Positions 3,861 to 53,604 of a stretch of DNA of 55,720 nucleotides are shown here, one piece after another; the stretch's first letter is position 1; the number at the start of each line of letters is the position of its first letter. The DNA comes from a virus. Lineage: Duplodnaviria; Caudoviricetes. The stretch is from positions 1 through 55,720 of IMG/VR virus record IMGVR_UViG_3300023181_000007. One strand, 5' to 3'. The notes under the pieces were generated by a model. That model made no database searches. It had not been told where the DNA came from and saw nothing but the letters and a program-made list of their open reading frames with translations. A program made the translations under genes and the position numbers.

Positions 3861-3891
3861 AGGCCCAACTTAAATGTTTGGGCCTTTTTTT
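3861..3891 (+). terminator. intrinsic terminator after terS
   Basis: AGGCCCAA...TTGGGCCT plus T-run. Confidence 0.85.
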
Positions 3892-3942
3892 ATGCTTTAT
3901 AATCATGGCTGTATCGATCTTTCACGGGGTGGAGACAAAAAA

Positions 3943-3997
3943 TAGTACTAAATAAAGTACTTTTTGTTTGTTAGTACCGAATATAGTACTATATTTG
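3943..3997 (+). promoter_or_regulatory. cassette I promoter with four AGTAC(T) operator-like repeats
   Basis: TTTG 3967-3970, 19-nt spacer, TATATTTG 3990-3997; TAGTACTA/AAGTACTT/TAGTACCG/TAGTACTA at 3943, 3955, 3972, 3984. Confidence 0.75.
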
Positions 3998-4010: not shown

Positions 4011-4032
4011 TTAAAAACATAAGATCGTGGAA
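4011..4032 (+). promoter_or_regulatory. putative sRNA target site over a GTG start
   Basis: TTAAAAACATA (4011-4021) and ATCGTGGAA (4024-4032) are perfect complements of 38488-38498 and 38461-38469. Confidence 0.7.
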
Positions 4033-12730: not shown

Positions 12731-12757
12731 TTGTATAATAAAATATTATTATATTTG
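12731..12757 (+). promoter_or_regulatory. cassette II promoter with TAATAA-N4-TTATTA operator
   Basis: Palindrome 12736-12751 overlaps TATATTTG 12750-12757. Confidence 0.7.
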
Positions 12758-12810
12758 TCCCTGTAATACAATATGTGTTGCAGGGATTTTTAATTAAAAA
12801 ACGTGGAATA

Positions 12811-13032
12811 ATGACAAATTCAAACAAAGCAGACATTGCAAAGAGAAACCAAGAAACCGAAAGAGACATACAGTTTATGATAAAAGGTTTTAAAGATGAG
12901 GGTTATGATTCTGAAAAATTAAATACAGTTCTTTTTCATGCCAATAACTTTGAACAAAGAGGAGGATCTAATGCAAACAGAAGAATGATACAGGCAGCAA
13001 AAAGGCTGTTGAGTACTCCTGAAATATTTTAA
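12811..13032 (+). CDS. hypothetical protein, first gene of cassette II
   Basis: ATG 12811 preceded by CGTGGAATAA (sRNA-complementary); start revised from 12775. Confidence 0.7.
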   Translation: MTNSNKADIAKRNQETERDIQFMIKGFKDEGYDSEKLNTVLFHANNFEQRGGSNANRRMIQAAKRLLSTPEIF

Positions 13033-13049
13033 TTAAAAACATTATTGTC

Positions 13050-13289
13050 GTGGAAAACAATTGGAAAAACTTCAATCAAAGAGCAATAGTAAACATGCAA
13101 ACTATTGTAAATGTTCATGAGCATAGAACAAATAGAATTTGTCCGTATGTAATAGAGAAAGAAACCCTATTACATTACAGCGATACAAAAATTACAATGT
13201 TCGATTATCATTTTGAACATGAGACGTATTTATTTTCAACTGACAACAAAAACATTGGGTTTGTTGCAAGTGTATTTTGCTTAAACTAA
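13050..13289 (+). CDS. hypothetical protein (GTG start inside an sRNA target site)
   Basis: TTAAAAACAT..TTGTCGTGGAA. Confidence 0.7.
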   Translation: MENNWKNFNQRAIVNMQTIVNVHEHRTNRICPYVIEKETLLHYSDTKITMFDYHFEHETYLFSTDNKNIGFVASVFCLN

Positions 13290-13317
13290 TTTATAAATCA
13301 ATAAAACTTTATTTATC

Positions 13318-14103
13318 GTGGAAACTACAAAAAAAACTATCACAGTACTTTTAATGATGATCTCATTAACTTCATTTTCTCAAACAAATTTTAATTACGG
13401 GATGGGTTCAATTGTCTCTCAAGTCATAAGCCCAACTATAGATGTAAATAGTGAGCAAACTAGTCTTTACGGAGGAAAAGGATTGGCAGCTTTTTACATA
13501 AACAAACCAATAACAACGCGTCATGATTCTTTTACCTTAGGAGGCGGTTATAAATATAGCGACGATGGTAATTTTAGCAATCCTGAATTATACGTAAGTC
13601 GTTGCGGTGCTAATGATGATCGTTTTAGAATGGCCTTAATATTTGGAATGTATAGAATAACCGGAGACAATCAGCAAACCGCAAGGGGTACAACTTATTT
13701 ATCGAGGCGCGCAAGTTATGCCGGGGCTGCTTTGTCTTATCACTTTGAAAACAATAATTACTTTGGCGTTAAAGTTGGAGACGTTTATGATGTGGCATAC
13801 ACCGACGGGAGTGACAGCGTTTATTATTTATTTGAAGCTATGACTCCAACAGCTTTCACAAACTTCAATGTTTTTGATAATGGGTTTGAAAAAGTATCTA
13901 TATACGCTCAAGCCTCTTATAATGCTGTTGAGAAAACAAAATACACCGCCGCCGTAAACTTTGAAAATGAGAGGTTGGTTTTAGGAGCTTGGGCCGACGT
14001 TAATATTGGAGCACGTGCCAAATACAAAACCGATTGGCTAGATGTTCAAGTTACTTATGAAAAAGGTTTCTTTGTTGGATTGATAATAAAAGATATACCG
14101 TAA
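13318..14103 (+). CDS. exported, probable outer-membrane beta-barrel protein (GTG start inside an sRNA target site)
   Basis: Signal peptide ...LTSFS-Q; alternating aromatic/Gly beta strands. Confidence 0.65.
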   Translation: METTKKTITVLLMMISLTSFSQTNFNYGMGSIVSQVISPTIDVNSEQTSLYGGKGLAAFYINKPITTRHDSFTLGGGYKYSDDGNFSNPELYVSRCGANDDRFRMALIFGMYRITGDNQQTARGTTYLSRRASYAGAALSYHFENNNYFGVKVGDVYDVAYTDGSDSVYYLFEAMTPTAFTNFNVFDNGFEKVSIYAQASYNAVEKTKYTAAVNFENERLVLGAWADVNIGARAKYKTDWLDVQVTYEKGFFVGLIIKDIP

Positions 14104-14666: not shown

Positions 14667-15302
14667 ATGAAAAATAAAACAGTAAAAAAGCTCATTAAAA
14701 AGCAGCTTAAGACAAAAGAGGCTTTAATTGATGCAAAAAATGGAATGATAAAGTTTTTTAATTTTATAACCCTGTTTTTGTGTTGTTGGTTCTTTGCTTG
14801 TTTAATAGCGGGAATAAATATTAAAGATGATACTTTAGAAATAGCATCTTACGTAAACGCATCGGCAATTATAATATGGCTGTTGTTTGTATTTTGTTAC
14901 AATTACTCACTTTCAAAAAAAATATCTAAAAGTGATATTGCTCTTGAGGAATTGGTTAAATCATGGAACTTTGGAGAGAAAAAATATAAATCTAAAAAAA
15001 CACAGCCTTTACACGTTAAAAATAGTTGTCTTAATCCTGTTATTCAGGAGGGGGATGAGGAGTATAGATATAGGGTTACAGCATTGGCAACATACATAAC
15101 TGTTAACCATGATTTAGATGCAGCAATAAATAAAATAATCCTTTGGCTAGATAATACCCCTCTTAGCCTTGATGATTTAGAAAAAATATTTAATTCATTT
15201 ACTGCAAATACTATTATAAAACACAGCAATCTAATTGAGATATATTCCAATAAAGACGTTGATTATATAATTGATGAAATACAAAAAGAAGCTAACAAAT
15301 AA
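14667..15302 (+). CDS. two-TM membrane protein
   Basis: Two hydrophobic segments followed by a soluble domain. Confidence 0.7.
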   Translation: MKNKTVKKLIKKQLKTKEALIDAKNGMIKFFNFITLFLCCWFFACLIAGINIKDDTLEIASYVNASAIIIWLLFVFCYNYSLSKKISKSDIALEELVKSWNFGEKKYKSKKTQPLHVKNSCLNPVIQEGDEEYRYRVTALATYITVNHDLDAAINKIILWLDNTPLSLDDLEKIFNSFTANTIIKHSNLIEIYSNKDVDYIIDEIQKEANK

Positions 15303-19523: not shown

Positions 19524-20444
19524 ATGAGAAATTTAGATCACAACTTTATGACGCCTTTTTTATGCATGGCAATCATAAATGAGCTTTGCGGCTCCGACAC
19601 CTCAAAGCCTAAAAATACCGGGTTTTCAGGTAAACAATGTTTGGAGGGGCTAATGGAAAAGGTAGCGGTTGCCCGTGATGGGTTTTCGTTCGATTCATTA
19701 GCTGATTTCAAGGATAAAGATAAATGGCTTGAGGCAATTGCTAACAAAGATATTGTTCCATTGTTCGACGCTTACGTTGTTACTCCTGCTAACACAGATG
19801 CAACACAGTACACCGTTGGAAACTTCTCTTTTGAAACTGCATCGGCTGTTAAGATCACTACTTTCGAGAGTTATCTTGGTTTTTGTTCCCACGCGGCACT
19901 TAAATCGTATGCTAATTCTGAATATACACAGGTTTTCGAGTTCAACAATGATGGTTCGATTCTTGGAGTAGGTAACGAGGACGGAAGCGTAAAAGGCCAA
20001 GACCTTAAAGACTTAAACGTTGGAATCAGGACCATTGCAACGAGCGACAAACCGGCAACAACTTTGGTAAGATTAACTTACAAAGATTATAACCAACTTG
20101 AGGACAACGCGGTTGTAATAAAACCATCTTGGAGCCCGGCAGACATTGACGGTATATTTGATGTTGAATTAGAGTTTGTTAGTGCAACAGCTACAACAAT
20201 CAAATTTAAAGCTACAAGAGAGTGCGGTCATGCTCCTGTATTAGTTCTAACAACAGCCGATGTTGTTGTGAAAAATGCCTCCGGAGTAGTTCAAACAACT
20301 AGTTTTGTAGGTGCTGACGCTAACGGAGTTTATACTTTAACCGGTACTGCATTTGCTACAGGTTACACAGTAGAAATTGACGGAGTTGTTACGGTTGTTG
20401 ATACACTTTATGAGGGTGTTGAGCCAATGCCAATAACAGTTTAA
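19524..20444 (+). CDS. major tail (tube) protein with C-terminal beta-rich domain; start may be 19566
   Basis: Synteny, Thr/Val-rich C-terminus, followed by a terminator. Confidence 0.65.
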   Translation: MRNLDHNFMTPFLCMAIINELCGSDTSKPKNTGFSGKQCLEGLMEKVAVARDGFSFDSLADFKDKDKWLEAIANKDIVPLFDAYVVTPANTDATQYTVGNFSFETASAVKITTFESYLGFCSHAALKSYANSEYTQVFEFNNDGSILGVGNEDGSVKGQDLKDLNVGIRTIATSDKPATTLVRLTYKDYNQLEDNAVVIKPSWSPADIDGIFDVELEFVSATATTIKFKATRECGHAPVLVLTTADVVVKNASGVVQTTSFVGADANGVYTLTGTAFATGYTVEIDGVVTVVDTLYEGVEPMPITV

Positions 20445-21146: not shown

Positions 21147-21200
21147 GATTGTAAATCATAAATACCGTAATTTTACAATCAAATACATATTGATAATATT

Positions 21201-21770
21201 ATGATATACAAAAGATTTGATACAATCCCCTATAAAATGCTAATAGAAATATTATCAACAGGGGATTTTAAATTATTATCGGATGAGGAAACCCCGGAGG
21301 AGGAATTAAAAGATATTTGGGAGTCAATCGAAAGGGAGTATATGCAGCAAAACCCAACCGACAATGAGGAGAAAATAATAAAATACACAAAAGAGGTTTA
21401 TTATTTTGAGACGAAGCACAAGCAAGTTTTAACCTTTTGCGAGGTTCTTAAATTTGACTATGATAGTGAAGTTGTGGAAATACTTAAAAATTACGGTTAT
21501 AGCATTGATCACCACAATTATCTTGAAAGAGTCCCGGTTGTAGAAAGAGAGGCAAACGCTTTACTTGATAAGGCTATGAAGTTTCAAAATATGATTCCAA
21601 AAACCGAACCGGGTAAACGTGTAACGGTTGATGAAATGTTAGCAAGTTACGGCGCAATACTTCAAATAGATTTTGATTATAATACGGTAACAGCTTCTAA
21701 GGTTGTTGCTTTAGGCAAACAAATTGATCTTAAGGTGAAAGCCTTGGAGCGATCACAAATTAACCAATAA
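21201..21770 (+). CDS. putative tail assembly chaperone
   Basis: Directly upstream of the tape measure gene. Confidence 0.45.
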   Translation: MIYKRFDTIPYKMLIEILSTGDFKLLSDEETPEEELKDIWESIEREYMQQNPTDNEEKIIKYTKEVYYFETKHKQVLTFCEVLKFDYDSEVVEILKNYGYSIDHHNYLERVPVVEREANALLDKAMKFQNMIPKTEPGKRVTVDEMLASYGAILQIDFDYNTVTASKVVALGKQIDLKVKALERSQINQ

Positions 21771-21782
21771 CATCTTTTAGCT

Positions 21783-24700
21783 ATGGCAGGAAAGGACGGA
21801 ATAATTACGTTAAAGGACATCATTACAAATGATGCTCTTAGTTTTGGTGACATATACGCCAAAAACGTTGAGACAGCTATAAAAGCCAATGAAAAACTTA
21901 AACAATCCGCCAAAGGATTGAGTGAGGTTATGGATTTATATAGGTCGTCAGATACAAATTATAAATTAATAGAAACAAAAAATAAAGAAAAAACAGCTAT
22001 CGACTCCATTACTCAAGCCTTGCGGGATGAAGTACTAGCCATAAAAGAAATAACTCAAGCAAGGCAAGAACAACTTGCGGTTGAAAAAGCTCTTGACGCT
22101 GTAAATTCAGCAAGAAAAAAAACAAAGAGTAATGATTACGCCAAGGCTCTTGAGGAGGAGGCTCTAAATCACAAAAAAATAACTAACGCGATAAAAGAAC
22201 AAGAGTTGTCCGAAAAGGCTCTTGAGAAAGTAAAACAGGAAAAAAATAAGACTCAAAAACAAGAGGAGGCCGCTATTAAACGCAATACGGTGCTCACAGA
22301 AGAGGAAAAAATACAAAACCAACTATTACGTAAGGAAAAGGCATTGCAAGCCCGTGAGAACCTTGGATTGGTTGGTGCCTATGAAAAATTAAACAGAGAG
22401 AGAACCAAGGCGCAAAGAGTTCTTGCCGACTTATTGGCAGCAGAGGAAAAGGACACCCGCGCTATTATTAAGGCGCAAAGAGAATACGATGTTTTAAACT
22501 CAAGGGTGCAATCAGTTGACAAAGCCGTTGATATATTTTCTAAAAATATAGGTAATTACGGGAGCGCGTTTGGTGGTTTTGGTGATCTGCTTCAAACATT
22601 AACCGCCGCCTTTGGAGTTGCAACGGGAATACAACTATTTTCCGATGCTGTAACCAAGGCTAAAGATATATTAATAAACTACGAAAAAGAGGTTGTTAAT
22701 TTGGCGGCTATTGCCGGGCATACAAGAGAAGAGATTAAACCGCTTGAGGACACTATTCAAGATGTTGCGGCCGCAAGTATTAACAGCGCAACAGATGTAG
22801 CGAAATTGGCAACGGAGTTAATTAAATTAGGTTCAACCCCGGAAGAGGCCGCAAAGCTTCTAAAGCCTGTAAATGATTTATCATTAGCGTTGCAAGCGTC
22901 GGCGGAGGATGCCGCAACACTTGTAAAATCTTTACTTAATGCTTACGGAGAGGGTGCCGATCAAGCCGCAAGATATACAGATGTGTTAGCAGAAAGCGCA
23001 AACCGTTCGGCTTTGGATTTCCAAGGCTTAAGGGATGCATTCAGTTATTTAGCACCAACAGCAAAAACATTAGGTTTCTCTTTAGAAAAAACAGCCGCAT
23101 TGCTTGGGGTTCTTGCTGATAACGGTATTAAGGCGGAAAGTGCCGGGCGTTTAACTTCAACAGCCTTGGCAAGACTTGCCGGGAACGGCCTAACTCTTGA
23201 GGATGCTTTAGATAAGATAAATAAAGTACAAAGAGAATCTAACGATGAGCTGAAAGTTGCAGCAGTTGCCGCCGACTTATTCGGTGCGGAGGCTTTAAAG
23301 GTTGGTATTATATTAGCCAACAACAGAGAAAAGATAGACGAAAATACAATAGCTTATCAAAACTCAAGGGGTGCATTAGAAGAGCTTACCAACAAACAGC
23401 TTAAAAGCCTTGACGCTCAATTAGAAATCTTAGATAGTTCTTTTGAGGATTATATTATAAAGCTAAATGAAAGTACAGGCTTTACAGATTCATTTACAAA
23501 GGTTGTTAAGTTCCTAGCTTCAAACCTTGATACAATTATTGATGTAGCTTTTCAAGCAGTTGCGGCGTTTGTGGTTTATAAAACTGTAATGTTAGCATCG
23601 TCAGCAGCTACAAAAATACAAACAGCCTCTATTTATGCTCAAATACTTGCACAGGCTTTAATGACTAACGGGATAAAAGGATTGAGGGCGGAATTAACGG
23701 CTTTATCAGCTACAACAAAATTAAATCCTTATGCTTTAATTATAACGGCAACCATTGGTTTGATTTATTATTTAACCACGTTACAAAAGTCATTGGCACA
23801 AACAACAGCCGAAACCAAAAAAAATACCGATGCTTTTTTAAAAAATAGGGATATTCAGGAAAACAACATTGATCAAACCGAAAAACTTGCAGATAGATAC
23901 GATGAGTTAAGCGGAAAAGTCAACCTTACAACGAAAGAGCAAACAGAACTTGCAGAGATTACAAAGGTTTTAGGTAAGTTGGTACCGGATGCAACTACTA
24001 ATATAAATAAGTATGGAGAGGCTTTGGTTATTAGTTCCGATAAAATAAGGGAGTATGTTAAGTTACAAAAAGAAGTTCTTGCGCTAAAGACAGATGTTGA
24101 GCTTGATAAAAATGTTAAATTGCTTTCAAAACTACAAAGTGAGCAAGGCCGTTTTAATCAAGCGGTTGACTCAAGCAAGAGCACACAGGCATTTTTGGAA
24201 TCCTTGGGCAATAGCTACAAAACCATAAACGGCCGCTTAAGTGTTAGGAATGATTTATTAGGTACCTATAGCGAGTTATCCAAAGAAGAGCTATTATTAT
24301 TTAAACAGGCGGCGCTTAAAAATGAGACCGAAATAGCACAAACAGAAAACAGGATTAAGGCGTTAAAAAGGCTTCAAGATCAAGCGCAAGCAACTAATAA
24401 AGCAACGACCGGGAGCGCAACCCCTGACGCTACAGGAAAAGGCAGGACTATAGAGGTTATTGATGCCGAAATAAAAGCGGAGGAGGATAGGATAGATTCT
24501 CTTACTTACGTTACTAGGGCGGAGGGCCAATTAATAGATAAGCGTGTTGCAGCCCTTAAAAAGGAGAGAGAGGCAATTTATAGCACCTCAAAGGCTCAAA
24601 AAGACGCTAAAAAAATAAGGGAGGATTATCTAGCAAATCTTAAAAAGACCGATGAGGATGCGTTCAATTTAGCGGTGTTTAGGCTAAACAGAATAAAAGA

Positions 24701-26192: not shown

Positions 26193-28478
26193 ATGGGACA
26201 AATTAGCCCGGCATACGACGATAGAGTACGTTATACACTAATGTACAAACCATACGGAACCGAAGTAATTGACGACCCGATTGGTTGGGAAAATGACGAT
26301 AAAGAAATTGCCCGCAATGAGGATTATGACGGCATTATTACAAACTTTTCTAACGGATTAACCTTTGTTGGTTCAGGTGCCCAATATATACTTGCTGTTG
26401 ATGAGATTTATGGCGTTAATGCAAACATTAGATTGGTTAAGGAGGTAAGAAACCCTAAAACCGATCTATGGGAAAGGGCTTACTTTGGTTATTTAGATTT
26501 ATCTACAATGGAGGAGGAAAACAAGCAAGTTAAAATTAAATTCAACTCCGGAGGAATAGAGCAAATATTAAAAGCCCGTGAAAGTGAAAGCGTTGAGATT
26601 GACAGATTGACCACTATGGACGGCAAGCCAATAGATCCTATCCGTGTAGATATGGTATATTTAGAGGGTAGGGAGATTTTATTAAATACTTCTTACAATA
26701 TAAAAGAATCAGCTAACACCGCAACTGTAACCTTGGACAGTAAAGGCAATATTAGGCAAGAAACGGTTGGCGTTCCGTTGGCAGTAATTAGCCAAAGCCA
26801 TGAGGAGGCGCAAAGCGTTCTTGCTGAAACCAACGCTAATGAGGTTAACGGTACAAACGGGATAATGTTTTTTGCAGATAACGAAAGTGAAAGAGTGCTT
26901 AACATCACATTAGACTTATCTTTTGTAACAAACATTACCCGGATGGATGATACAACACAATCGCGTTATGCTTTATGTTTAACAAAATACACTAACGGCA
27001 TTGATTATGTGAGGAGCACCGTTATAGAGTTATTTAACACAGATACAAACGGCATTGATGCTTTGGGAGGTGATCATTGGAGAAATCCGTTTACAGGAAT
27101 AAATGAGAATCCTAAAACCTCGCATTCTGTATCATGGGGAGGCCAAATACATCTTTTAGAGGGTGAAAGTTTAGCCCTTGAGTTTATAGCAAAAAGTAAG
27201 TTAGGAGGAGATTTTAGTGTTGGGCATCTTGATATTGTTGCGGAAAGCATAACCGGAGGGCTTAAAATAATAGACAATAGTTATTATCCATCAAGCCAAT
27301 CAAAGTGCGTTTTAGCTTTTGAACTTGCAAACAAGCTTATAGAGATAATGACAGGAAGCGACACGGCGTTTTATAGCGAGTTTTTAGGCCGTACCGATAT
27401 TGGATATACAAAAGACGGAAAAGGCTCTTTAAATGGCTTTACTCATGGTTTTTGGGTGAGGGGTTTTGATTCACTCCCGGAAAGTACCGAAACGAATATA
27501 AATTCATTCAAACCCTTAACAACCTCATGGAAAGATTTTATGACCTCTATGGAGGCTATTTGGAACGTTGGTTTAGGTATTGAAACCGTCGGATATACTG
27601 ACCGTATTGTTTTAGAGGATAAAACATATTTTTGGCAACGTCAGGTAACAGTAAGATTGCCTAACCAAATAACCAAAAACAAAAATAGTGTTGCTACTAA
27701 ATATTACTATTCAGGTTTAGAGTTTGGATATGCCAAGGGCGGAGAGTATGAGGAGGCTATGGGATTGGATGAGTACAATGGAAAATCAACTTTCACAACA
27801 GTAATAACACGACTTAAAAATACTTTCTCTCAACTTTCGTTGTATCGTGCTGATAGTTTCGGTAAAGAATTTGCAAGGCGTAAACCCCGCATAAAATACC
27901 CAACCGAGGACTCCCAATATGATAATGATATTTTCATAATGGATATGAAGAGAACCGGCACCGATTCCGGGCAACCAATCGGAGAGGGTCCCGCGCCTGT
28001 ATTTTTAGAAAGAAAATGGCAAGATGATTTTGCAGAGGCACCAACCGGAACATATAGCCCGAATACTGCAACTAACTTAAGACTATCACCTGTAAACAAC
28101 TTATTAAGACACGGTTGGTTTATTGCGGCGGGATTTACAAAATACCTATCGGATTATGTTAGGTACGGAAGCTCAACAGCTAACAGCAGTTTAAAAACTA
28201 GGCTAATCGGAGGTAATGAACATGCTGAAAACGGTAATATTATCAACAAAGAGTTGGGAAATGCTAGGTTTATACCTCAATTCAAAGAGTTTGAGCATGA
28301 AGTTACTCCGGAAATAATGGCACAAATAGAGGGATTCACGGTTATAAATGGCCGTAAAGTTCCTAATGTTTACGGGCTATTTGAATTTAGAGACGAAAAC
28401 AATGATATAAGGCTTGGTTATTTAATAAATTTGAAGCCTAACGAAAACAAGTTCAAATTACTAACAGCTAATAGATAA
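26193..28478 (+). CDS. tail tip/hub protein
   Basis: 761 aa right after the TMP; DPIGWEND N-terminus. Confidence 0.6.
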   Translation: MGQISPAYDDRVRYTLMYKPYGTEVIDDPIGWENDDKEIARNEDYDGIITNFSNGLTFVGSGAQYILAVDEIYGVNANIRLVKEVRNPKTDLWERAYFGYLDLSTMEEENKQVKIKFNSGGIEQILKARESESVEIDRLTTMDGKPIDPIRVDMVYLEGREILLNTSYNIKESANTATVTLDSKGNIRQETVGVPLAVISQSHEEAQSVLAETNANEVNGTNGIMFFADNESERVLNITLDLSFVTNITRMDDTTQSRYALCLTKYTNGIDYVRSTVIELFNTDTNGIDALGGDHWRNPFTGINENPKTSHSVSWGGQIHLLEGESLALEFIAKSKLGGDFSVGHLDIVAESITGGLKIIDNSYYPSSQSKCVLAFELANKLIEIMTGSDTAFYSEFLGRTDIGYTKDGKGSLNGFTHGFWVRGFDSLPESTETNINSFKPLTTSWKDFMTSMEAIWNVGLGIETVGYTDRIVLEDKTYFWQRQVTVRLPNQITKNKNSVATKYYYSGLEFGYAKGGEYEEAMGLDEYNGKSTFTTVITRLKNTFSQLSLYRADSFGKEFARRKPRIKYPTEDSQYDNDIFIMDMKRTGTDSGQPIGEGPAPVFLERKWQDDFAEAPTGTYSPNTATNLRLSPVNNLLRHGWFIAAGFTKYLSDYVRYGSSTANSSLKTRLIGGNEHAENGNIINKELGNARFIPQFKEFEHEVTPEIMAQIEGFTVINGRKVPNVYGLFEFRDENNDIRLGYLINLKPNENKFKLLTANR

Positions 28479-37546: not shown

Positions 37547-37564
37547 ATAATATTTATATATTTG

Positions 37565-37637
37565 TATAATTACTTTTGTGGAATTACTTTATTTCATTGC
37601 TGCCTAAAACCGCCGATCATCCCCCGGCGGTTTTTTT
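37565..37637 (+). ncRNA. candidate small RNA or structured 3' UTR
   Basis: TATATTTG 37557-37564, non-coding body, AAAACCGCCG/CGGCGGTTTT terminator. Confidence 0.3.
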
Positions 37638-37648
37638 ATATACATTTG
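37606..37648 (+). terminator. terminator followed by a -7 box
   Basis: GC-rich stem plus T7; TACATTTG 37641-37648. Confidence 0.85.
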
Positions 37649-38298: not shown

Positions 38299-38419
38299 AA
38301 TATTTGATTTAAGAGGTTTTCCTTAAAAAGCCATATATAGATATACTTTTAATTGATATAATCAAACACCGACTTTTAAAACAATAAAATATAATTATAA
38401 GACACTCATTAAAGTAATA

Positions 38420-38452
38420 TTTGGATAGTAAAATATAAATGATATATATTTG
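38420..38452 (+). promoter_or_regulatory. promoter of the antisense sRNA
   Basis: TTTG 38420-38423, 21-nt spacer, TATATTTG 38445-38452. Confidence 0.75.
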
Positions 38453-38455
38453 CAA

Positions 38456-38526
38456 TGTTATTCCACGATAACAAGCAAAAAGCAAAATATGTTTTTAAAC
38501 CGGTCTACTCAAAGGCCGGTTTTTTT
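38456..38526 (+). ncRNA. putative trans-acting bipartite antisense sRNA (~70 nt)
   Basis: Promoter and terminator with no credible gene between; hairpin TGTTAT-TCCACG-ATAACA; seeds complementary to 10 leader/start sites. Confidence 0.75.
38497..38526 (+). terminator. intrinsic terminator of the sRNA
   Basis: AAACCGGTCT-ACTCAA-AGGCCGGTTT plus T-run. Confidence 0.85.
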
Positions 38527-38550
38527 ATTTATTAAAATAATATAAAAATA

Positions 38551-38582
38551 TTGTTTCAAGTAATAAATAATTATTACATTTG
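38551..38582 (+). promoter_or_regulatory. replication-operon promoter with TAATAA-N4-TTATTA operator
   Basis: TTG 38551, palindrome 38561-38576, TACATTTG 38575-38582. Confidence 0.75.
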
Positions 38583-38604
38583 TCAAAACATAAAACCTTA
38601 AGTC

Positions 38605-38796
38605 GTGGAAAACTCAAGTAAATCTTATCCTATAATCATAGAAATATCTAAGAACAAAAAACCGTTCAAAGTAGATATTAAAGACCCTAATTTTTATAAT
38701 CCTATTAGCTGCTTAAATAAACAATATGAGGAGCCGGTTAAAAAGGTTTATAAAAAAATTGATTATTCCCCTTTTGAAATTATAAGCCCGAATTAA
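38605..38796 (+). CDS. hypothetical protein (GTG start inside an sRNA target site)
   Basis: AAAACATA...GTCGTGGAA; first gene of the operon. Confidence 0.6.
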   Translation: MENSSKSYPIIIEISKNKKPFKVDIKDPNFYNPISCLNKQYEEPVKKVYKKIDYSPFEIISPN

Positions 38797-38818: not shown

Positions 38819-39070
38819 ATGCCACAAGAGAAAATTTTAATCAAACCGGAAGATGTTAGTATTGATGTAAAACTAGCAATTGAAGAGTATCGAAAAAAAC
38901 ACCCGGAACTAAAGGATAAGACGCAAAAAGCCCTTGCCTTAGAAATCAAAACGACTATGGACACTTTCGTAAAATGGAAAAAGAACCCGCCGAAAGTGAT
39001 TGCAGACCTTTTAAATATCGCTGCAATTTGCGAATGTGAAATAACAGACTTTGTTAAAAAAAAGAATTAA
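38819..39070 (+). CDS. Cro-like HTH transcriptional regulator
   Basis: TQKALALEIKTTMDTFVKWK...IAAICECEITDF. Confidence 0.75.
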   Translation: MPQEKILIKPEDVSIDVKLAIEEYRKKHPELKDKTQKALALEIKTTMDTFVKWKKNPPKVIADLLNIAAICECEITDFVKKKN

Positions 39071-43646: not shown

Positions 43647-43685
43647 TAATATTTTATTGATAGTAATAATATTTTATTATATTTG
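43644..43685 (+). promoter_or_regulatory. promoter with tandem TAATAA-N4-TTATT(A/G) operators
   Basis: Copies at 43644-43659 and 43664-43679; TATATTTG 43678-43685. Confidence 0.75.
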
Positions 43686-43713
43686 CTACAGTAAAAACAT
43701 AAACATTTATATC

Positions 43714-44049
43714 GTGGAAAATATAAAATCAATGTTATTGCAAAATCTGCAAGACATAAATCAACTAGCTGACCCTCACAAATCAGATGAACATATTGCC
43801 CTTACATCAACTTATTTTGATGAATCAACTCAAGATAACTATGAGCTAATAGTTGAGTTAATAGCTTATAAAAGCGAAAGAGAAGAGCCGGGAACTTATC
43901 ACAGCGATAGAGGCGACGTTGAGGGGCATGGCTTTTATAATGTAATTACTTCAATAGAGATTCAACAAATTTATATATTCATGAATTTTGAGGATGAACC
44001 ACAATTCAAAATAACCAACCAAGAAGCTGTTGAGGCTATAAAATTTTAA
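43714..44049 (+). CDS. acidic hypothetical protein (GTG start inside an sRNA target site)
   Basis: In-frame GTG in TATCGTGGAA; the track start 43657 lies within the promoter. Confidence 0.7.
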   Translation: MENIKSMLLQNLQDINQLADPHKSDEHIALTSTYFDESTQDNYELIVELIAYKSEREEPGTYHSDRGDVEGHGFYNVITSIEIQQIYIFMNFEDEPQFKITNQEAVEAIKF

Positions 44050-47159: not shown

Positions 47160-47204
47160 TAATAAAATATATTTGTTTTAAATAATAATATTTTATTATA
47201 TTTG
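47160..47204 (+). promoter_or_regulatory. promoter with TAATAA-N4-TTATTA operator
   Basis: Palindrome 47183-47198; TATATTTG 47197-47204. Confidence 0.75.
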
Positions 47205-47235
47205 ACGTGTGGAATAATAACAAAAACATTGTATC

Positions 47236-47529
47236 GTGGAAAATACAAAAACAATCTCAACACGTTCAGGTGCGTTAAAATCTGATGATCAATTAAGGGC
47301 TTATATAAACAAAAACTTTATTATTCGTTGGCGAATGAAAGGAGATAAAAAAAGTAATCTTATTTCCGCCGGTAAATTTGTAAAGTTATTGCAGGACAAA
47401 ACAAGCATGGTCACAATTACCCCGGAGGAAACAAAACAAAAATACTTTGATAAAGTGATTAACGGTCGAAAGTATCGTTATGACTTTTTGATAATGGGTA
47501 TTTTACAAGTTCAATTTATATCTAAATAA
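47236..47529 (+). CDS. basic hypothetical protein (GTG start inside an sRNA target site)
   Basis: AAAAACAT..TATCGTGGAA. Confidence 0.7.
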   Translation: MENTKTISTRSGALKSDDQLRAYINKNFIIRWRMKGDKKSNLISAGKFVKLLQDKTSMVTITPEETKQKYFDKVINGRKYRYDFLIMGILQVQFISK

Positions 47530-52324: not shown

Positions 52325-52369
52325 TAATAATATATTATTTGGTATAATAATAAAATATAATTACTTTTG
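52325..52369 (+). promoter_or_regulatory. promoter with two degenerate TAATAA-N4-TTATTA operators
   Basis: Copies at 52325-52340 and 52348-52363; TACTTTTG 52362-52369. Confidence 0.65.
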
Positions 52370-52395
52370 ATGAGTGGAATAACAAAATACAAAAC

Positions 52396-52794
52396 ATGAT
52401 ACCTGAAAAATTTACTGTAACAAAGGAGTATAAACATGAAAGTTATTGTTTGATACTTGATTGCATTGTTGTCATTAAAAAACATCTTCATAAATCACCG
52501 ATCATAGTAGATAGAAAGCTTGATAAGTTTTATAGAAGATTTGACATGCAAAGATTCACACTCGATATAGGTGATGATTCTAATTTTTATTTAGAAGTAA
52601 ATATAAAAGAGCAAAAGTTAACAATCTGTATTAAGATAGCTTTAAGGGGTATATCTCAACGTATTGCTTGCGTCATAGAATTGCCGGTAACTCAAATGAT
52701 TCATTATATAGGAGACGCTAATGAGATAGTTTTTGAGGAAATAGAAAGAGCTGAAAAAAACCTAAATAATCTCTTGGTATGCGATACAGAATAA
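52396..52794 (+). CDS. hypothetical protein
   Basis: First gene after the promoter; leader carries GTGGAATAACA. Confidence 0.7.
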   Translation: MIPEKFTVTKEYKHESYCLILDCIVVIKKHLHKSPIIVDRKLDKFYRRFDMQRFTLDIGDDSNFYLEVNIKEQKLTICIKIALRGISQRIACVIELPVTQMIHYIGDANEIVFEEIERAEKNLNNLLVCDTE

Positions 52795-53068: not shown

Positions 53069-53284
53069 ATGGATAAATACACCCTAAATGATGTTAAACT
53101 AGACATCGAAATTGTAAAGAGGTCGATTGCTGACCCTGATAAGGCTCATTGTATAGAGGATCAAATAATGTACAGGTTTATAGAGTGTTTATCTATTGGC
53201 ATGTATGAAATTGATGAGGCTATAGAGATTGCAGCCTTAATTAAAGAATGCAACGAGTTACAATTCCCAAGGTACACATCTTAA
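53069..53284 (+). CDS. hypothetical protein
   Basis: DPDKAHCIED motif. Confidence 0.7.
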   Translation: MDKYTLNDVKLDIEIVKRSIADPDKAHCIEDQIMYRFIECLSIGMYEIDEAIEIAALIKECNELQFPRYTS

Positions 53285-53298
53285 AAAACATTTTTATC

Positions 53299-53604
53299 GT
53301 GGAAAATAAAAATCACAAAAGACCAATGAAAGTATTATATCAAATACTTTTAGAAACGGCTAAAGAAAAAGGATTTGGAGAGAATGGAATTTGTCAACTC
53401 ATAGGTAGGCTTCTCATAAAAAAACATTTTAATACCTATGAAGCTAATGCATTAATTTGTGATATTGACAATAACAAACCTGAAAGCTATAATCCTCATA
53501 ATGGTTATTTTTTCCCGGTTGGTAAAAATTACGAATTGAAAAGAATCAAATTAATAGAACAACGTTTAAACTTTTACAGCAATGAGCCAACCGCATTCAC
53601 CTGA
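53299..53604 (+). CDS. hypothetical protein (GTG start inside an sRNA target site)
   Basis: AAAAACAT..TTATCGTGGAA; in-frame GTG just after the upstream stop. Confidence 0.65.
   Translation: MENKNHKRPMKVLYQILLETAKEKGFGENGICQLIGRLLIKKHFNTYEANALICDIDNNKPESYNPHNGYFFPVGKNYELKRIKLIEQRLNFYSNEPTAFT

What the first reader, a model, noticed from the sequence alone, without database searches (positions are those of the whole stretch)
38420..38526. Phage-encoded bipartite antisense sRNA complementary to the GTG start sites of a gene regulon (candidate RNA master regulator)
SEEN: a Bacteroidota-type promoter (TTTG-21nt-TATATTTG, 38420-38452) and an intrinsic terminator (38497-38526) enclose about 70 nt with no credible gene. 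The RNA would begin with hairpin UGUUAU-[UCCACG]-AUAACA (38456-38473). Its loop is complementary to CGUGGA, so it displays CAC against a GUG start codon. An A-rich linker leads to a second seed, UAUGUUUUUAA (38488-38498). Seven genes start with GTG inside TCGTGGAA, with 9-11 nt complementarity to seed 1 (G:U allowed): 4027, 13050, 13318, 38605, 43714, 47236, 53299. Six of these carry the seed-2 complement just upstream in the correct antiparallel order: TTAAAAACATA 4011, TTAAAAACAT 13033, AAAACATA 38585, TAAAAACATA 43692, AAAAACAT 47222 and 53284. The only reverse-complement copy of TCGTGGAA I found is the sRNA itself. KNOWN: two-seed antisense control is how P1/P7 c4 RNA and P4 CI RNA confer immunity, but those act on a local operon. 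INFERENCE: this RNA occludes initiation, and so silences all putative early units in trans. It sits just upstream of the Cro-like/replication operon in a genome with no recognisable CI, so it may be an RNA-based immunity or early-to-late switch. An activating role cannot be excluded. Seed 2 alone is weak evidence because Bacteroidota leaders are A-rich.
Basis: partly seen in the sequence, partly recalled or inferred. Interest (0 to 1): 0.95.

Follow-up and report, generated by a model that had tools for sequence, protein, structure and literature searches.

The report
Phage small RNA against GTG starts
A Bacteroidota phage carries a likely ~70-base regulatory RNA whose hairpin loop and a second stretch are complementary to the start regions of a set of its own genes that begin with GTG, and a similar unit is present in cultured Flavobacterium psychrophilum phages, where the idea can be tested.

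Summary
TCGTGGAA occurs 7 times on the + strand, each at a GTG gene start, and once inverted at 38461-38468, against 0.81 expected. Six of the seven starts also carry AAAA(A)CAT just upstream. The inverted copy has both halves. It lies between a Bacteroidota-type promoter and a strong terminator.

New here: the unit belongs to a small conserved family. Homologous units (promoter, CAA, hairpin with a CCAC loop, U/G-rich stretch, terminator) occur in Flavobacterium phage FpV9 and 28 identical GenBank phages. They also occur in four IMG/VR contigs. The loop never varies, while the stems change with compensation. The second seed and the 3' arm differ between lineages and match that lineage's own gene starts. 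Two orthologous target genes keep the GTG motif in both the window and FpV9.

Best reading (about 0.68): a trans-acting antisense sRNA that pairs with the initiation regions of the phage's early-type units, probably repressing them. No RNA data exist, and neither repression nor an immunity role is shown. There is no Rfam match, and four library searches found nothing in print. I rate it a new variant of a known kind.

The parts
38420..38452 (+). Promoter of the sRNA: -33 TTTG (38420-38423), 21-nt spacer, -7 box TATATTTG (38445-38452)
   Evidence: Sequence; listed. In F. psychrophilum the sigma-A box TAnnTTTG occupies -12 to -5 (PMC9723704, passages read). This puts the start of the RNA at about 38457. 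TATATTTG followed by CAA is identical in all seven family members.
38457..38529 (+). Predicted sRNA, about 70-73 nt (predicted start to end of the terminator U-run)
   Evidence: Fold of 38456-38530: three hairpins, -20.9 kcal/mol, z = -5.2. No credible ORF. No Rfam family at gathering score. The transcript itself is inferred, not observed.
38456..38473 (+). 5' hairpin. Stem TGTTAT(T)/(G)ATAACA. The loop holds CCAC within TTCCACGA (seed 1, 38461-38468), the exact complement of TCGTGGAA.
   Evidence: The same hairpin with a CCAC, UCCAC or UUCCAC loop appears in six lineages. On window/FpV9/L343, 20 of 21 cells are paired and 5 of 7 pairs changed on both sides; 11 of 500 shuffles did as well.
38488..38498 (+). 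Seed 2, TATGTTTTTAA. It is the complement of TTAAAAACATA and is partly sequestered in a weak A-U hairpin with the A-rich linker.
   Evidence: The reverse complements of its 8-mers hit 4011-4014, 13033-13036, 38585, 43692-43694, 47222 and 53284.
38497..38526 (+). Intrinsic terminator
   Evidence: 10-pair stem with 5 G-C pairs, loop of 6, then TTTTATTTAT.
4011..4032 (+). Class I target: TTAAAAACATA-aga-TCGTGGAA, GTG start at 4027. First gene behind the promoter at 3990.
   Evidence: Rank 2 of 89.
13033..13055 (+). Class I target: TTAAAAACAT-tattg-TCGTGGAA, GTG start at 13050
   Evidence: Rank 1 and 3 of 89.
13313..13323 (+). Class I target with seed 1 only: TTATCGTGGAA (11-nt complement), GTG start at 13318. 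The product has a signal-peptide-like N-terminus.
   Evidence: Rank 7 and 1 of 89.
38585..38610 (+). Class I target: AAAACATA-N10-TCGTGGAA, GTG start at 38605. First gene (63 aa, KDPNF motif) behind the promoter at 38575, directly downstream of the sRNA.
   Evidence: The N-terminus aligns with homologues.
43692..43719 (+). Class I target: TAAAAACATA-N10-TCGTGGAA, GTG start at 43714. First gene behind the promoter at 43678.
   Evidence: It is the orthologue of the FpV9 gene at 24349, which starts the same way.
47208..47241 (+). Leader with two sites: class II TGTGGAATAA (47208-47217), then AAAAACAT-tgta-TCGTGGAA with GTG start at 47236
53284..53304 (+). Class I target: AAAAACAT-tttta-TCGTGGAA, GTG start at 53299
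   Evidence: Rank 5 and 6 of 89.
12802..12811 (+). Class II site CGTGGAATAA, a 10-nt complement of 38458-38467. It reads GTG GAA TAA, with the stop overlapping the ATG at 12811, behind the promoter at 12750.
52374..52384 (+). Class II site GTGGAATAACA, an 11-nt complement of 38456-38466. It lies in the leader behind the promoter at 52362, 12 nt before the ATG at 52396.
   Evidence: Rank 6 and 4 of 89.
38575..38582 (+). -7 box (TACATTTG) of the downstream early-type promoter, preceded by an A+T-rich repeat region shared with the promoters at 12750, 43678, 47197 and 52362

Best explanation
The stretch from 38457 to about 38529 encodes a trans-acting antisense small RNA of about 70 nt. It belongs to a previously undescribed family carried by phages of Flavobacterium and related Bacteroidota.

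Proposed steps (all inferred):
1. Host RNA polymerase starts at a sigma-A-type promoter, and the RNA begins directly with a 6-8 bp hairpin.
2. The hairpin's invariant loop, (U)UCCACG(A), pairs with a GUG start codon and its neighbours (UCGUGGAA).
3. Pairing spreads into the 3' arm of the hairpin.
4. A second U/G-rich stretch pairs with the A-rich leader 4-11 nt upstream. In Bacteroidota this leader takes the place of a Shine-Dalgarno site.
5. With both seeds bound, the initiation region is covered, so translation of the marked genes most likely falls, perhaps with mRNA decay.

The marked genes are the first genes behind one promoter class (3990, 12750, 38575, 43678, 47197, 52362) plus three internal genes. 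The RNA would therefore act as a common post-transcriptional timer for these units in a phage that lacks integrase and resolvase.

What is shown: the complementarity, the family, the covariation, and the promoter and terminator signals. What is inferred: that the RNA is transcribed, that it pairs in vivo, and the direction of the effect.
For: In the window:
(1) TCGTGGAA occurs 8 times against 0.81 expected. All 7 + copies are at GTG starts, and the single inverted copy is bipartite and sits between a promoter and a terminator.
(2) Of 89 crude gene starts, the motif genes rank 1-5, 7 and 8 by duplex energy. By cofold energy net of unfolding they rank 1, 2, 3, 5, 6, 7 and 10, at -5.9 to -13.0 kcal/mol against a median of -2.6.
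(3) Three leaders carry GTGGAATAA, the complement of the 5' arm plus loop. There are 4 copies on both strands against 0.80 expected, and 2 of 100 shuffles reach 4.
(4) I picked by eye 18 intergenic TAnnTTTG sites from the list. Six units of the A+T-rich-repeat promoter class are each followed by a complementary site, and 9 other promoters are not.

The family:
(5) FpV9 carries a homologous unit at 19888-19964, identical in 29 of 29 GenBank records. L338, L339, L341 and L343 carry one too (4 of the 14 pattern hits).
(6) All six fold alike, z = -3.3 to -4.9. The loop is invariant and the stems differ with compensation.
(7) The predicted start, 5 nt after the -7 box (PMC9723704), is the first stem base in every member.

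Co-variation with targets:
(8) In FpV9, TCGTGGAA occurs 7 times against 1.96 expected, and the only inverted copy is the unit.
(9) The FpV9 RNA's best partner among 4265 genome windows, and among 61 starts, is the GTG start at 21178 (-28.5 kcal/mol). Next come 24349 and 27113.
(10) The 3' arm GAGUCUA (FpV9) versus GAAUCUU (L343) is matched by UAGACUC versus AAGAUUC at the start of the orthologous gene, which is two compensatory changes.
(11) Seed 2 differs by lineage and matches that lineage's own leaders, for example 13-15-nt matches in L339, L338 and L341.
(12) Cognate pairs of sRNA and adjacent leader beat all but 22 of 1854 derangements.
(13) Orthologues window 43714 / FpV9 24349 and window 38605 / FpV9 20040 both keep GTG in the motif.
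(14) The G-U pairs in the stems work only in RNA of the + strand.
Against: - No transcript has been seen.
- The A at +7 (GTG GAA A) is kept in 7 of 7 class I sites, yet it faces an A in the RNA. The start motif therefore carries a constraint that pairing does not explain.
- In this AU-rich genome, plain duplex energies at some non-start sites are as good as or better than the true sites, for example -24.0 at 14771.
- The G002 variant has TTCCACG but no hairpin, and its GTG starts rank only 21 and 87 of 144.
- In L341 and L343 the adjacent gene starts with ATG and has no seed-1 complement.
- In FpV9, 5 of the 6 forward TCGTGGAA copies lie inside annotated CDSs rather than at starts.
- FpV9's own adjacent start (20040) ranks only 12 of 61.
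- The family has only six or seven lineages, some of them close (L338/L339).
- MAFFT plus RNAalifold gave no consensus, and neither covariance model unified the family.
- The 80 + 80 loci related through the neighbouring NTPase mostly lack the unit.
Confidence: 0.68

Rival explanations
1. The start motif is the binding site of a protein, for example a RegA-like translational repressor on RNA or a regulator on DNA. The inverted copy would be an operator or decoy, not an antisense RNA.
For: The motif holds positions that pairing does not explain: A at +7 in 7 of 7 sites. The hairpin is a DNA palindrome. FpV9 has motif copies inside coding regions.
Against: In the family the loop is invariant and the arms vary, the reverse of a palindromic operator. 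The stems contain G-U pairs, which would be A-C mismatches on the other strand and in duplex DNA. The spacing between the two halves runs from 3 to 20 nt. A promoter and a terminator flank the unit in every member. A protein site gives no reason for lineage-specific complementarity of seed 2 and the 3' arm.
Confidence: 0.1
2. The unit is a cis-acting leader or attenuator, analogous to lambda PR'-tR' (6S RNA; recalled). Transcripts from 38445 stop at the terminator unless it is read through. In read-through RNA the 5' part folds back on the start of gene 38605. The other six sites would be shared leader ancestry.
For: The unit lies 100 nt upstream of one of its best complements and always directly upstream of the same small gene. 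Tandem promoters occur elsewhere in the window, at 47168/47197.
Against: The terminator is strong, and a second full promoter lies between the unit and the gene. Three of the seven sites (13050, 13318, 53299) have no promoter cassette, so shared leader ancestry does not explain them. In FpV9 the best complements are 1.2-7 kb away, while the adjacent start ranks 12 of 61.
Confidence: 0.07
3. The RNA is real, but its invariant loop mainly binds a conserved host molecule (a host mRNA set, an RNA chaperone or a ribosomal component). The phage start sites would be secondary targets or sponges.
For: The loop is identical across lineages that differ everywhere else. That fits a fixed host partner as well as it fits a fixed GUG context.
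Against: The 16S rRNA of one Chitinophagaceae genome has no TTCCACG (one genome only). The phage genomes are enriched in the complement precisely at their own starts. No host genome could be examined for targets.
Confidence: 0.1
4. Chance, or a decaying inverted duplicate of a leader with no function.
For: One reverse copy of an 8-mer alone is not rare: about 0.4 are expected per strand.
Against: The copy is bipartite, lies in a promoter-terminator unit, and is conserved with covariation in phages that share no other detectable DNA similarity.
Confidence: 0.03

Closest known systems
P1/P7 c4 antisense RNA (passages of review PMC12197685 read; details of seeds a'/b', processing and Rfam family name are recalled)
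   Same: It is a short phage RNA. Its complementary stretches sit in loops and pair with sites around the ribosome-binding region of a phage mRNA to block translation. It also uses two separate seeds.
   Different: c4 acts on one downstream target (ant) in its own operon and is cut out of a longer transcript (recalled). This unit has its own promoter and terminator. It has 7-10 dispersed complements, and seed 1 covers the start codon itself. No Rfam family matched.
Phage T4 RegA translational repressor (recalled)
   Same: One phage-encoded factor recognises the initiation regions of many early mRNAs and shuts them off as a group. This is the closest functional analogue.
   Different: RegA is a protein. 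Here the proposed factor is an RNA, and the targets are marked by a fixed GUG-GAA context.
Trans-acting phage or prophage sRNAs such as DicF (passage), and the sRNAs of a quorum-sensing Vibrio phage (only the reference title was seen)
   Same: They are phage-encoded base-pairing RNAs with their own transcription signals that act in trans on several mRNAs.
   Different: Those cases are in Proteobacteria, are largely Hfq-dependent (recalled), and are mostly aimed at host genes. This family is in Bacteroidota phages. Its visible targets are the phage's own starts, and the targets share a dedicated non-AUG start codon.
Host sRNAs of Flavobacterium/Bacteroides, e.g. Rfp18 of F. psychrophilum (PMC9723704, passages)
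   Same: An sRNA of the same host group, predicted to use one stem-loop as the common pairing region for several mRNAs.
   Different: Rfp18 is chromosomal and its predicted targets are protease mRNAs. No sequence relation was tested or claimed.

Membership tests
Trans-encoded base-pairing sRNA that occludes translation initiation regions | Own promoter and intrinsic terminator enclosing a short non-coding stretch | tested here: met
   The same layout is present in all six relatives. These are sequence signals only.
Trans-encoded base-pairing sRNA that occludes translation initiation regions | Seed complementarity to several unlinked mRNAs, beyond chance, at their start regions | tested here: met
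   for the window; for FpV9.
Trans-encoded base-pairing sRNA that occludes translation initiation regions | Conserved structure with compensatory changes, and co-variation of seed and target between relatives | tested here: met
   (5 of 7 stem pairs changed on both sides in 3 sequences; 11 of 500 shuffles as high). Searches also apply. The sample is small, with six or seven lineages.
Trans-encoded base-pairing sRNA that occludes translation initiation regions | A transcript of the predicted size exists | not testable with these tools
Trans-encoded base-pairing sRNA that occludes translation initiation regions | Target expression changes with the RNA and is rescued by compensatory mutations | not testable with these tools
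   This needs bench work.
P1/P7 c4-type (and P4 CI-type) immunity RNAs | Sequence and structure membership in the curated RNA family | tested here: not met
   No Rfam 15 family reaches its gathering score anywhere in the window.
P1/P7 c4-type (and P4 CI-type) immunity RNAs | Acts on a single linked operon and is made from the same transcript as its target (recalled definition) | tested here: not met
   The unit has its own promoter and terminator. Its complements are spread over 4-53 kb.
P1/P7 c4-type (and P4 CI-type) immunity RNAs | Serves prophage immunity in a temperate phage | tested here: inconclusive
   The window has no tyrosine or serine recombinase. The unit was not found in 401 sampled Bacteroidota genomes, where the one pattern hit is a chance look-alike. 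Other forms of lysogeny were not excluded.
The new family itself (CCAC-loop sRNA of Flavobacterium phages) | TATATTTG-CAA, a 5' hairpin with (U)(U)CCAC loop, a U/G-rich linker and a terminator, upstream of the promoter of the small KDPNF-motif gene | tested here: met
   Window 38445-38528 against FpV9, L338, L339, L341 and L343. Synteny with the small gene and the following gene is shown. Covariance models did not confirm this: R1 missed the window, and R2 was trained on the window.

The most novel reading that the evidence does not exclude
A family of Bacteroidota phages uses a private 'start-codon address'. Genes to be co-regulated are given a GUG-GAA start plus a short leader tag. A single phage RNA with an invariant anti-GUG loop (CCAC) and a lineage-specific second seed then switches the whole set at once. 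This would be an RNA counterpart of T4 RegA, in a phylum where translation starts without Shine-Dalgarno pairing. The choice of GUG over AUG would itself be part of the regulatory code.
Probability: 0.45. Interest if true: 0.85.

Novelty: new variant of a known kind. Interest (0 to 1): 0.74.

Why it matters
- **Few comparable cases.** Phage-encoded sRNAs that control the phage's own programme are known from only a handful of cases. The 2025 review I read in passages discusses only proteobacterial ones and never mentions Bacteroidota.
- **A new RNA family.** If confirmed, this would be an RNA family absent from Rfam.
- **A new type of regulon.** It would be the first phage sRNA regulon defined by a shared non-AUG start codon.
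- **A way into Bacteroidota translation control.** It would open post-transcriptional control in a phylum whose initiation signals differ from the textbook (PMC9723704).
- **Directly testable.** The same unit sits in FpV9-type phages of Flavobacterium psychrophilum, which are in culture.
- **Annotation fixes.** It flags errors in those GenBank records: an unannotated small gene and GTG starts that were missed.

Tried and rejected
- **Rfam.** The whole window at gathering thresholds gave 0 matches.
- **Exact 18-mer of the hairpin in IMG/VR.** One hit (L083) in an unrelated coding context, judged to be chance.
- **Target pattern with a gap in IMG/VR.** 119+ loci, each with a single hit. Those with several TCGTGGAA copies were unrelated coding repeats.
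- **Two-seed pattern in IMG/VR.** 11 hits, all antisense to coding sequence and without targets.
- **Relatives through neighbouring proteins.**
  - The 207-aa upstream protein has no relative in IMG/VR or in the metagenomes.
  - The NTPase gave 80 + 80 + 17 loci at up to 81% identity. Their upstream regions are mosaic, and only L027/G002 has a similar unit.
  - The portal protein gave 6 distant loci.
  - The small KDPNF protein gave 3 loci, two of them identical to G002 and one (L306) without the unit.
- **G002.** Its unit shows no outstanding targets.
- **A general GTG context?**
  - FL-1 has 2 GTG starts, neither in the motif.
  - About 1.0 Mb of related loci holds 152 distinct CGTGGA contexts. 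Only 12 pass a crude start filter, and about half of those are in the G002 lineage, L035 and L041.
  - So the motif is not a general start context.
- **Pairing with 16S rRNA.** One Chitinophagaceae 16S has no TTCCACG.
- **Expression.** No RNA holder was listed for the stretch; the single listed run is DNA and may be the source sample.
- **Alignments and models.**
  - MAFFT alignments A2, A3, A4 and A7 are not structure-aware, and RNAalifold on A3 gave no pairs.
  - Model R1 (from L338 + L339) finds L341 (E = 9.5e-5) but not the window, FpV9 or L343.
  - Model R2 (from window + FpV9 + L343) finds its own three sequences (E = 0.03-0.06) but not L338, L339 or L341. Its FL-1 hit lies inside a CDS.
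- **Bacterial genomes.** 1 of 401 sampled Bacteroidota genomes matched the pattern, with no hairpin or terminator there.
- **Earlier notes of the scan.**
  - The sequence look-up found nothing.
- **Literature.** Searches found no paper on an sRNA of FpV9 or of other Flavobacterium phages. I saw only search listings, plus passages of PMC12197685 and PMC9723704. Supplements were not opened; the promoter and sRNA tables of PMC9723704 might bear on the TSS rule.
Full report
**What the window is.** The window is a complete virus record of 55,720 bases with direct terminal repeats. By a crude ORF call, about 89 of 92 genes lie on the + strand. Its nearest named relative by DNA is Flavobacterium phage FL-1, and only over part of one gene. 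Prophage-like relatives of the neighbouring NTPase lie in Chitinophagaceae and other Bacteroidota. No tyrosine or serine recombinase was found.

- TCGTGGAA occurs 8 times against 0.81 expected, and 0 of 100 shuffles reach 8. Seven copies are on the + strand and one on the - strand at 38461-38468.
- Each + copy places its GTG at the head of an ORF. In five of them the next codons are GAA AAY, so unrelated proteins begin with MEN.
- AAAAACAT is rare: 17 copies on + and 5 on -. Five of the 17 + copies, plus one AAAACATA, lie 4-11 nt upstream of a TCGTGGAA.
- One of the 5 - strand copies lies 20 nt upstream of the only - strand TCGTGGAA. The inverted copy is therefore a true bipartite copy, not a stray 8-mer.
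- It sits between a -33/-7 promoter pair and a 10-pair terminator. The stretch has no credible ORF and folds well (z = -5.2).

**More complements than the finding listed.** Three leaders carry GTGGAATAA(CA) at 12802, 47208 and 52374. This is the complement of the 5' arm plus loop. The count is 4 copies on both strands against 0.80 expected. I had seen these sites independently.

**Ranking of gene starts.**
- Among 89 crude starts, the seven motif genes rank 1-5, 7 and 8 by duplex energy, and 52396 ranks 6.
- With the cost of opening both partners charged, they rank 1, 2, 3, 5, 6, 7 and 10.

**Link to one promoter class.** I picked by eye 18 intergenic TAnnTTTG sites from the list.
- The six units with A+T-rich upstream repeats (3990, 12750, 38575, 43678, 47168/47197, 52362) are each followed by a complement.
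- Nine other promoters are not.

The seven proteins have no Pfam family. PHROGs gave only one weak hit, to a family of unknown function, for 43714. Upstream of the unit lie an endolysin and a weak spanin-like match. The unit therefore sits at the border between the lysis genes and the replication module.

**Relatives: first attempts.** Close relatives do not exist in the collections, or are withheld.
- The NTPase gave 80 viral and 80 metagenome loci at up to 81% identity, with mosaic upstream regions.
- A scan of these loci for promoter-to-terminator mini-units found 10 such units. Only the window's unit and that of L027/G002 hold the loop motif.
- G002 is syntenic: the unit, then a promoter, then a homologue of the 63-aa protein. 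However, its unit has no hairpin and no outstanding targets.

**The decisive relatives.** A low-stringency blastn of 38400-38640 against GenBank phages hit FpV9 at 67.6% identity over 177 nt, E = 2e-3. FpV9 is a phage of Flavobacterium psychrophilum. Reading that locus showed the same architecture, in this order:
1. TATATTTG followed by CAA.
2. A short hairpin holding TTCCACGA.
3. A U-rich stretch.
4. A terminator.
5. An A+T-rich promoter.
6. An unannotated small gene of the same family, starting with GTG behind AAAAAACAT.

The unit is identical in 29 of 29 FpV9-type records. A pattern built from the shared features then found 14 IMG/VR loci. Four of these (L338, L339, L341, L343) are homologues by inspection, and the other ten are chance.

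**Structure.**
- Each of the six units folds on its own into the same shape: a 5' hairpin of 6-8 pairs with a CCAC, UCCAC or UUCCAC loop, an open U/G-rich linker, and a terminator. Their z-scores run from -3.3 to -4.9.
- The stems differ. The window has UA GC UA UA AU UA UG, and FpV9 has AU GC AU UG UA UG.
- On the three members with equal loop size, 20 of 21 cells pair and 5 of 7 pairs changed on both sides. Eleven of 500 shuffles did as well, and slid controls reached 33-52% paired.
- The invariant part is the loop and the variable part is the arms. The G-U pairs work only in + strand RNA. Both points argue for an RNA hairpin rather than a palindromic protein site.
- In F. psychrophilum the sigma-A box lies at -12 to -5 (PMC9723704, passages). 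The predicted first base is therefore the first stem base in every member.

**Co-variation with targets.**
- FpV9 has 7 copies of TCGTGGAA against 1.96 expected, and the unit holds the only inverted one.
- Its RNA's best partner among 4265 genome windows and among 61 starts is the GTG start at 21178 (-28.5 kcal/mol). This site carries an 11-nt complement of loop plus 3' arm and a near-complement of the U-rich stretch. Next come 24349 and 27113, both behind copies of the repeated promoter.
- The orthologous gene in L343 carries an 11-nt complement of L343's own, different 3' arm. Two positions changed on both partners.
- Seed 2 is UAUGUUUUUAA in the window, A6GU6 in FpV9, and (U)UGUUUGUUUG(UG) in L338, L339 and L341. 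Each matches leaders in its own contig by up to 13-15 nt.
- Cognate pairs of sRNA and adjacent leader beat all but 22 of 1854 derangements. Several of these lineages are related, so this test is weak.
- Two orthologous gene pairs keep the GTG motif in both the window and FpV9, although the genomes share no other detectable DNA similarity.

**What speaks against, or limits, the reading.**
- No RNA has been seen.
- The A after GTG GAA is kept in 7 of 7 class I sites but mismatches the RNA, so the start motif has a further constraint.
- In this AU-rich genome, plain duplex energies at some non-start sites equal those of the true sites.
- The G002 variant is weak.
- L341 and L343 have ATG at the adjacent gene.
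- Five of the six forward copies in FpV9 lie inside annotated genes.
- FpV9's adjacent start ranks only 12 of 61.
- Neither covariance model unified the family, and the automatic alignment gave no consensus.
- The motif is not a general GTG context in relatives.
- It is not complementary to one Chitinophagaceae 16S.
- The unit was not found in 401 sampled Bacteroidota genomes.

**Mechanism proposed.** The loop nucleates on the GUG start codon and its neighbours. Pairing extends into the 3' arm. Seed 2 clamps the A-rich leader that serves ribosome loading in this phylum. The initiation region is then covered. Repression is the simplest outcome, but it is inferred. With no recombinase in the genome, a timing switch fits better than immunity.

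**Comparison with what is known.**
- The unit works like the c4 RNA of P1/P7 in having two seeds, in loops, around the ribosome site (passages of PMC12197685). It is not a member of that family: it has no Rfam match, it has its own promoter and terminator, and it has many dispersed targets.
- Functionally it resembles T4 RegA (recalled), with an RNA in place of the protein.
- Four library searches found no report of such an RNA in Flavobacterium phages.

**Verdict.**
- I rate it a new variant of a known kind.
- It is directly testable in the FpV9 / F. psychrophilum system.

Noticed in passing
window 37557-37640: A second promoter-to-terminator mini-unit lies between the endolysin gene and the next gene. 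It holds a sense-orientation UUGUGGAAU that could pair with the sRNA loop over 9 bp (duplex -12.6 kcal/mol) and folds with z = -3.7. It may be a second small RNA or a sponge. It shares TATAATTACTTTTG with the promoter at 52356.
   Followed up: partly
window 12750-12815: A promoter is followed by a hairpin plus T-run, then CGTGGAATAATG. This reads GTG GAA TAA, a start-Glu-stop mini-ORF whose stop overlaps the ATG of the next gene. FpV9 has the analogous ACGTGGAAATATG at 27103.
   Followed up: partly
L329 (FpV9, KT876725.1) 20040-20201, 21178, 24349: The GenBank annotation seems to miss a 53-aa gene of the KDPNF family. It also places two gene starts (annotated at 21235 and 24256/24533) away from GTG starts that carry the motif and have homologues in the window, G002 and L343.
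   Followed up: partly
L329 (FpV9) 2654, 10449, 15933, 22894, 28881: Five further (A)TCGTGGAA copies lie inside annotated coding regions, out of frame as start codons or opening only 2-24 codons. Why they are enriched is unexplained. They could be internal sRNA sites.
   Followed up: no
window 38819-39070; L086 9655-; L329 20225-20479: The second gene after the sRNA unit is conserved in the window, G002 and FpV9 (38% and 31% identity, E = 4e-15 and 1e-9). By eye it looks like a small helix-turn-helix protein, but Pfam gave no match for the window's copy.
   Followed up: partly
window 3861-3990: The promoter at 3990 is preceded by repeated AGTAC(T/C) units instead of the A+T-rich repeats of the other motif-bearing promoters.
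   Followed up: no
L103 6919-6988 and L183 1709-1778: Two unrelated IMG/VR contigs (GC 0.40) share an intergenic inverted pair, TTTTCCACGAAAAAAA ... TCGTGGAAA, 61 nt apart. I saw no relation to the present family.
   Followed up: no
window, whole: No tyrosine integrase or serine recombinase domain was found in six-frame searches, and the record has direct terminal repeats. The phage is probably virulent.
   Followed up: partly
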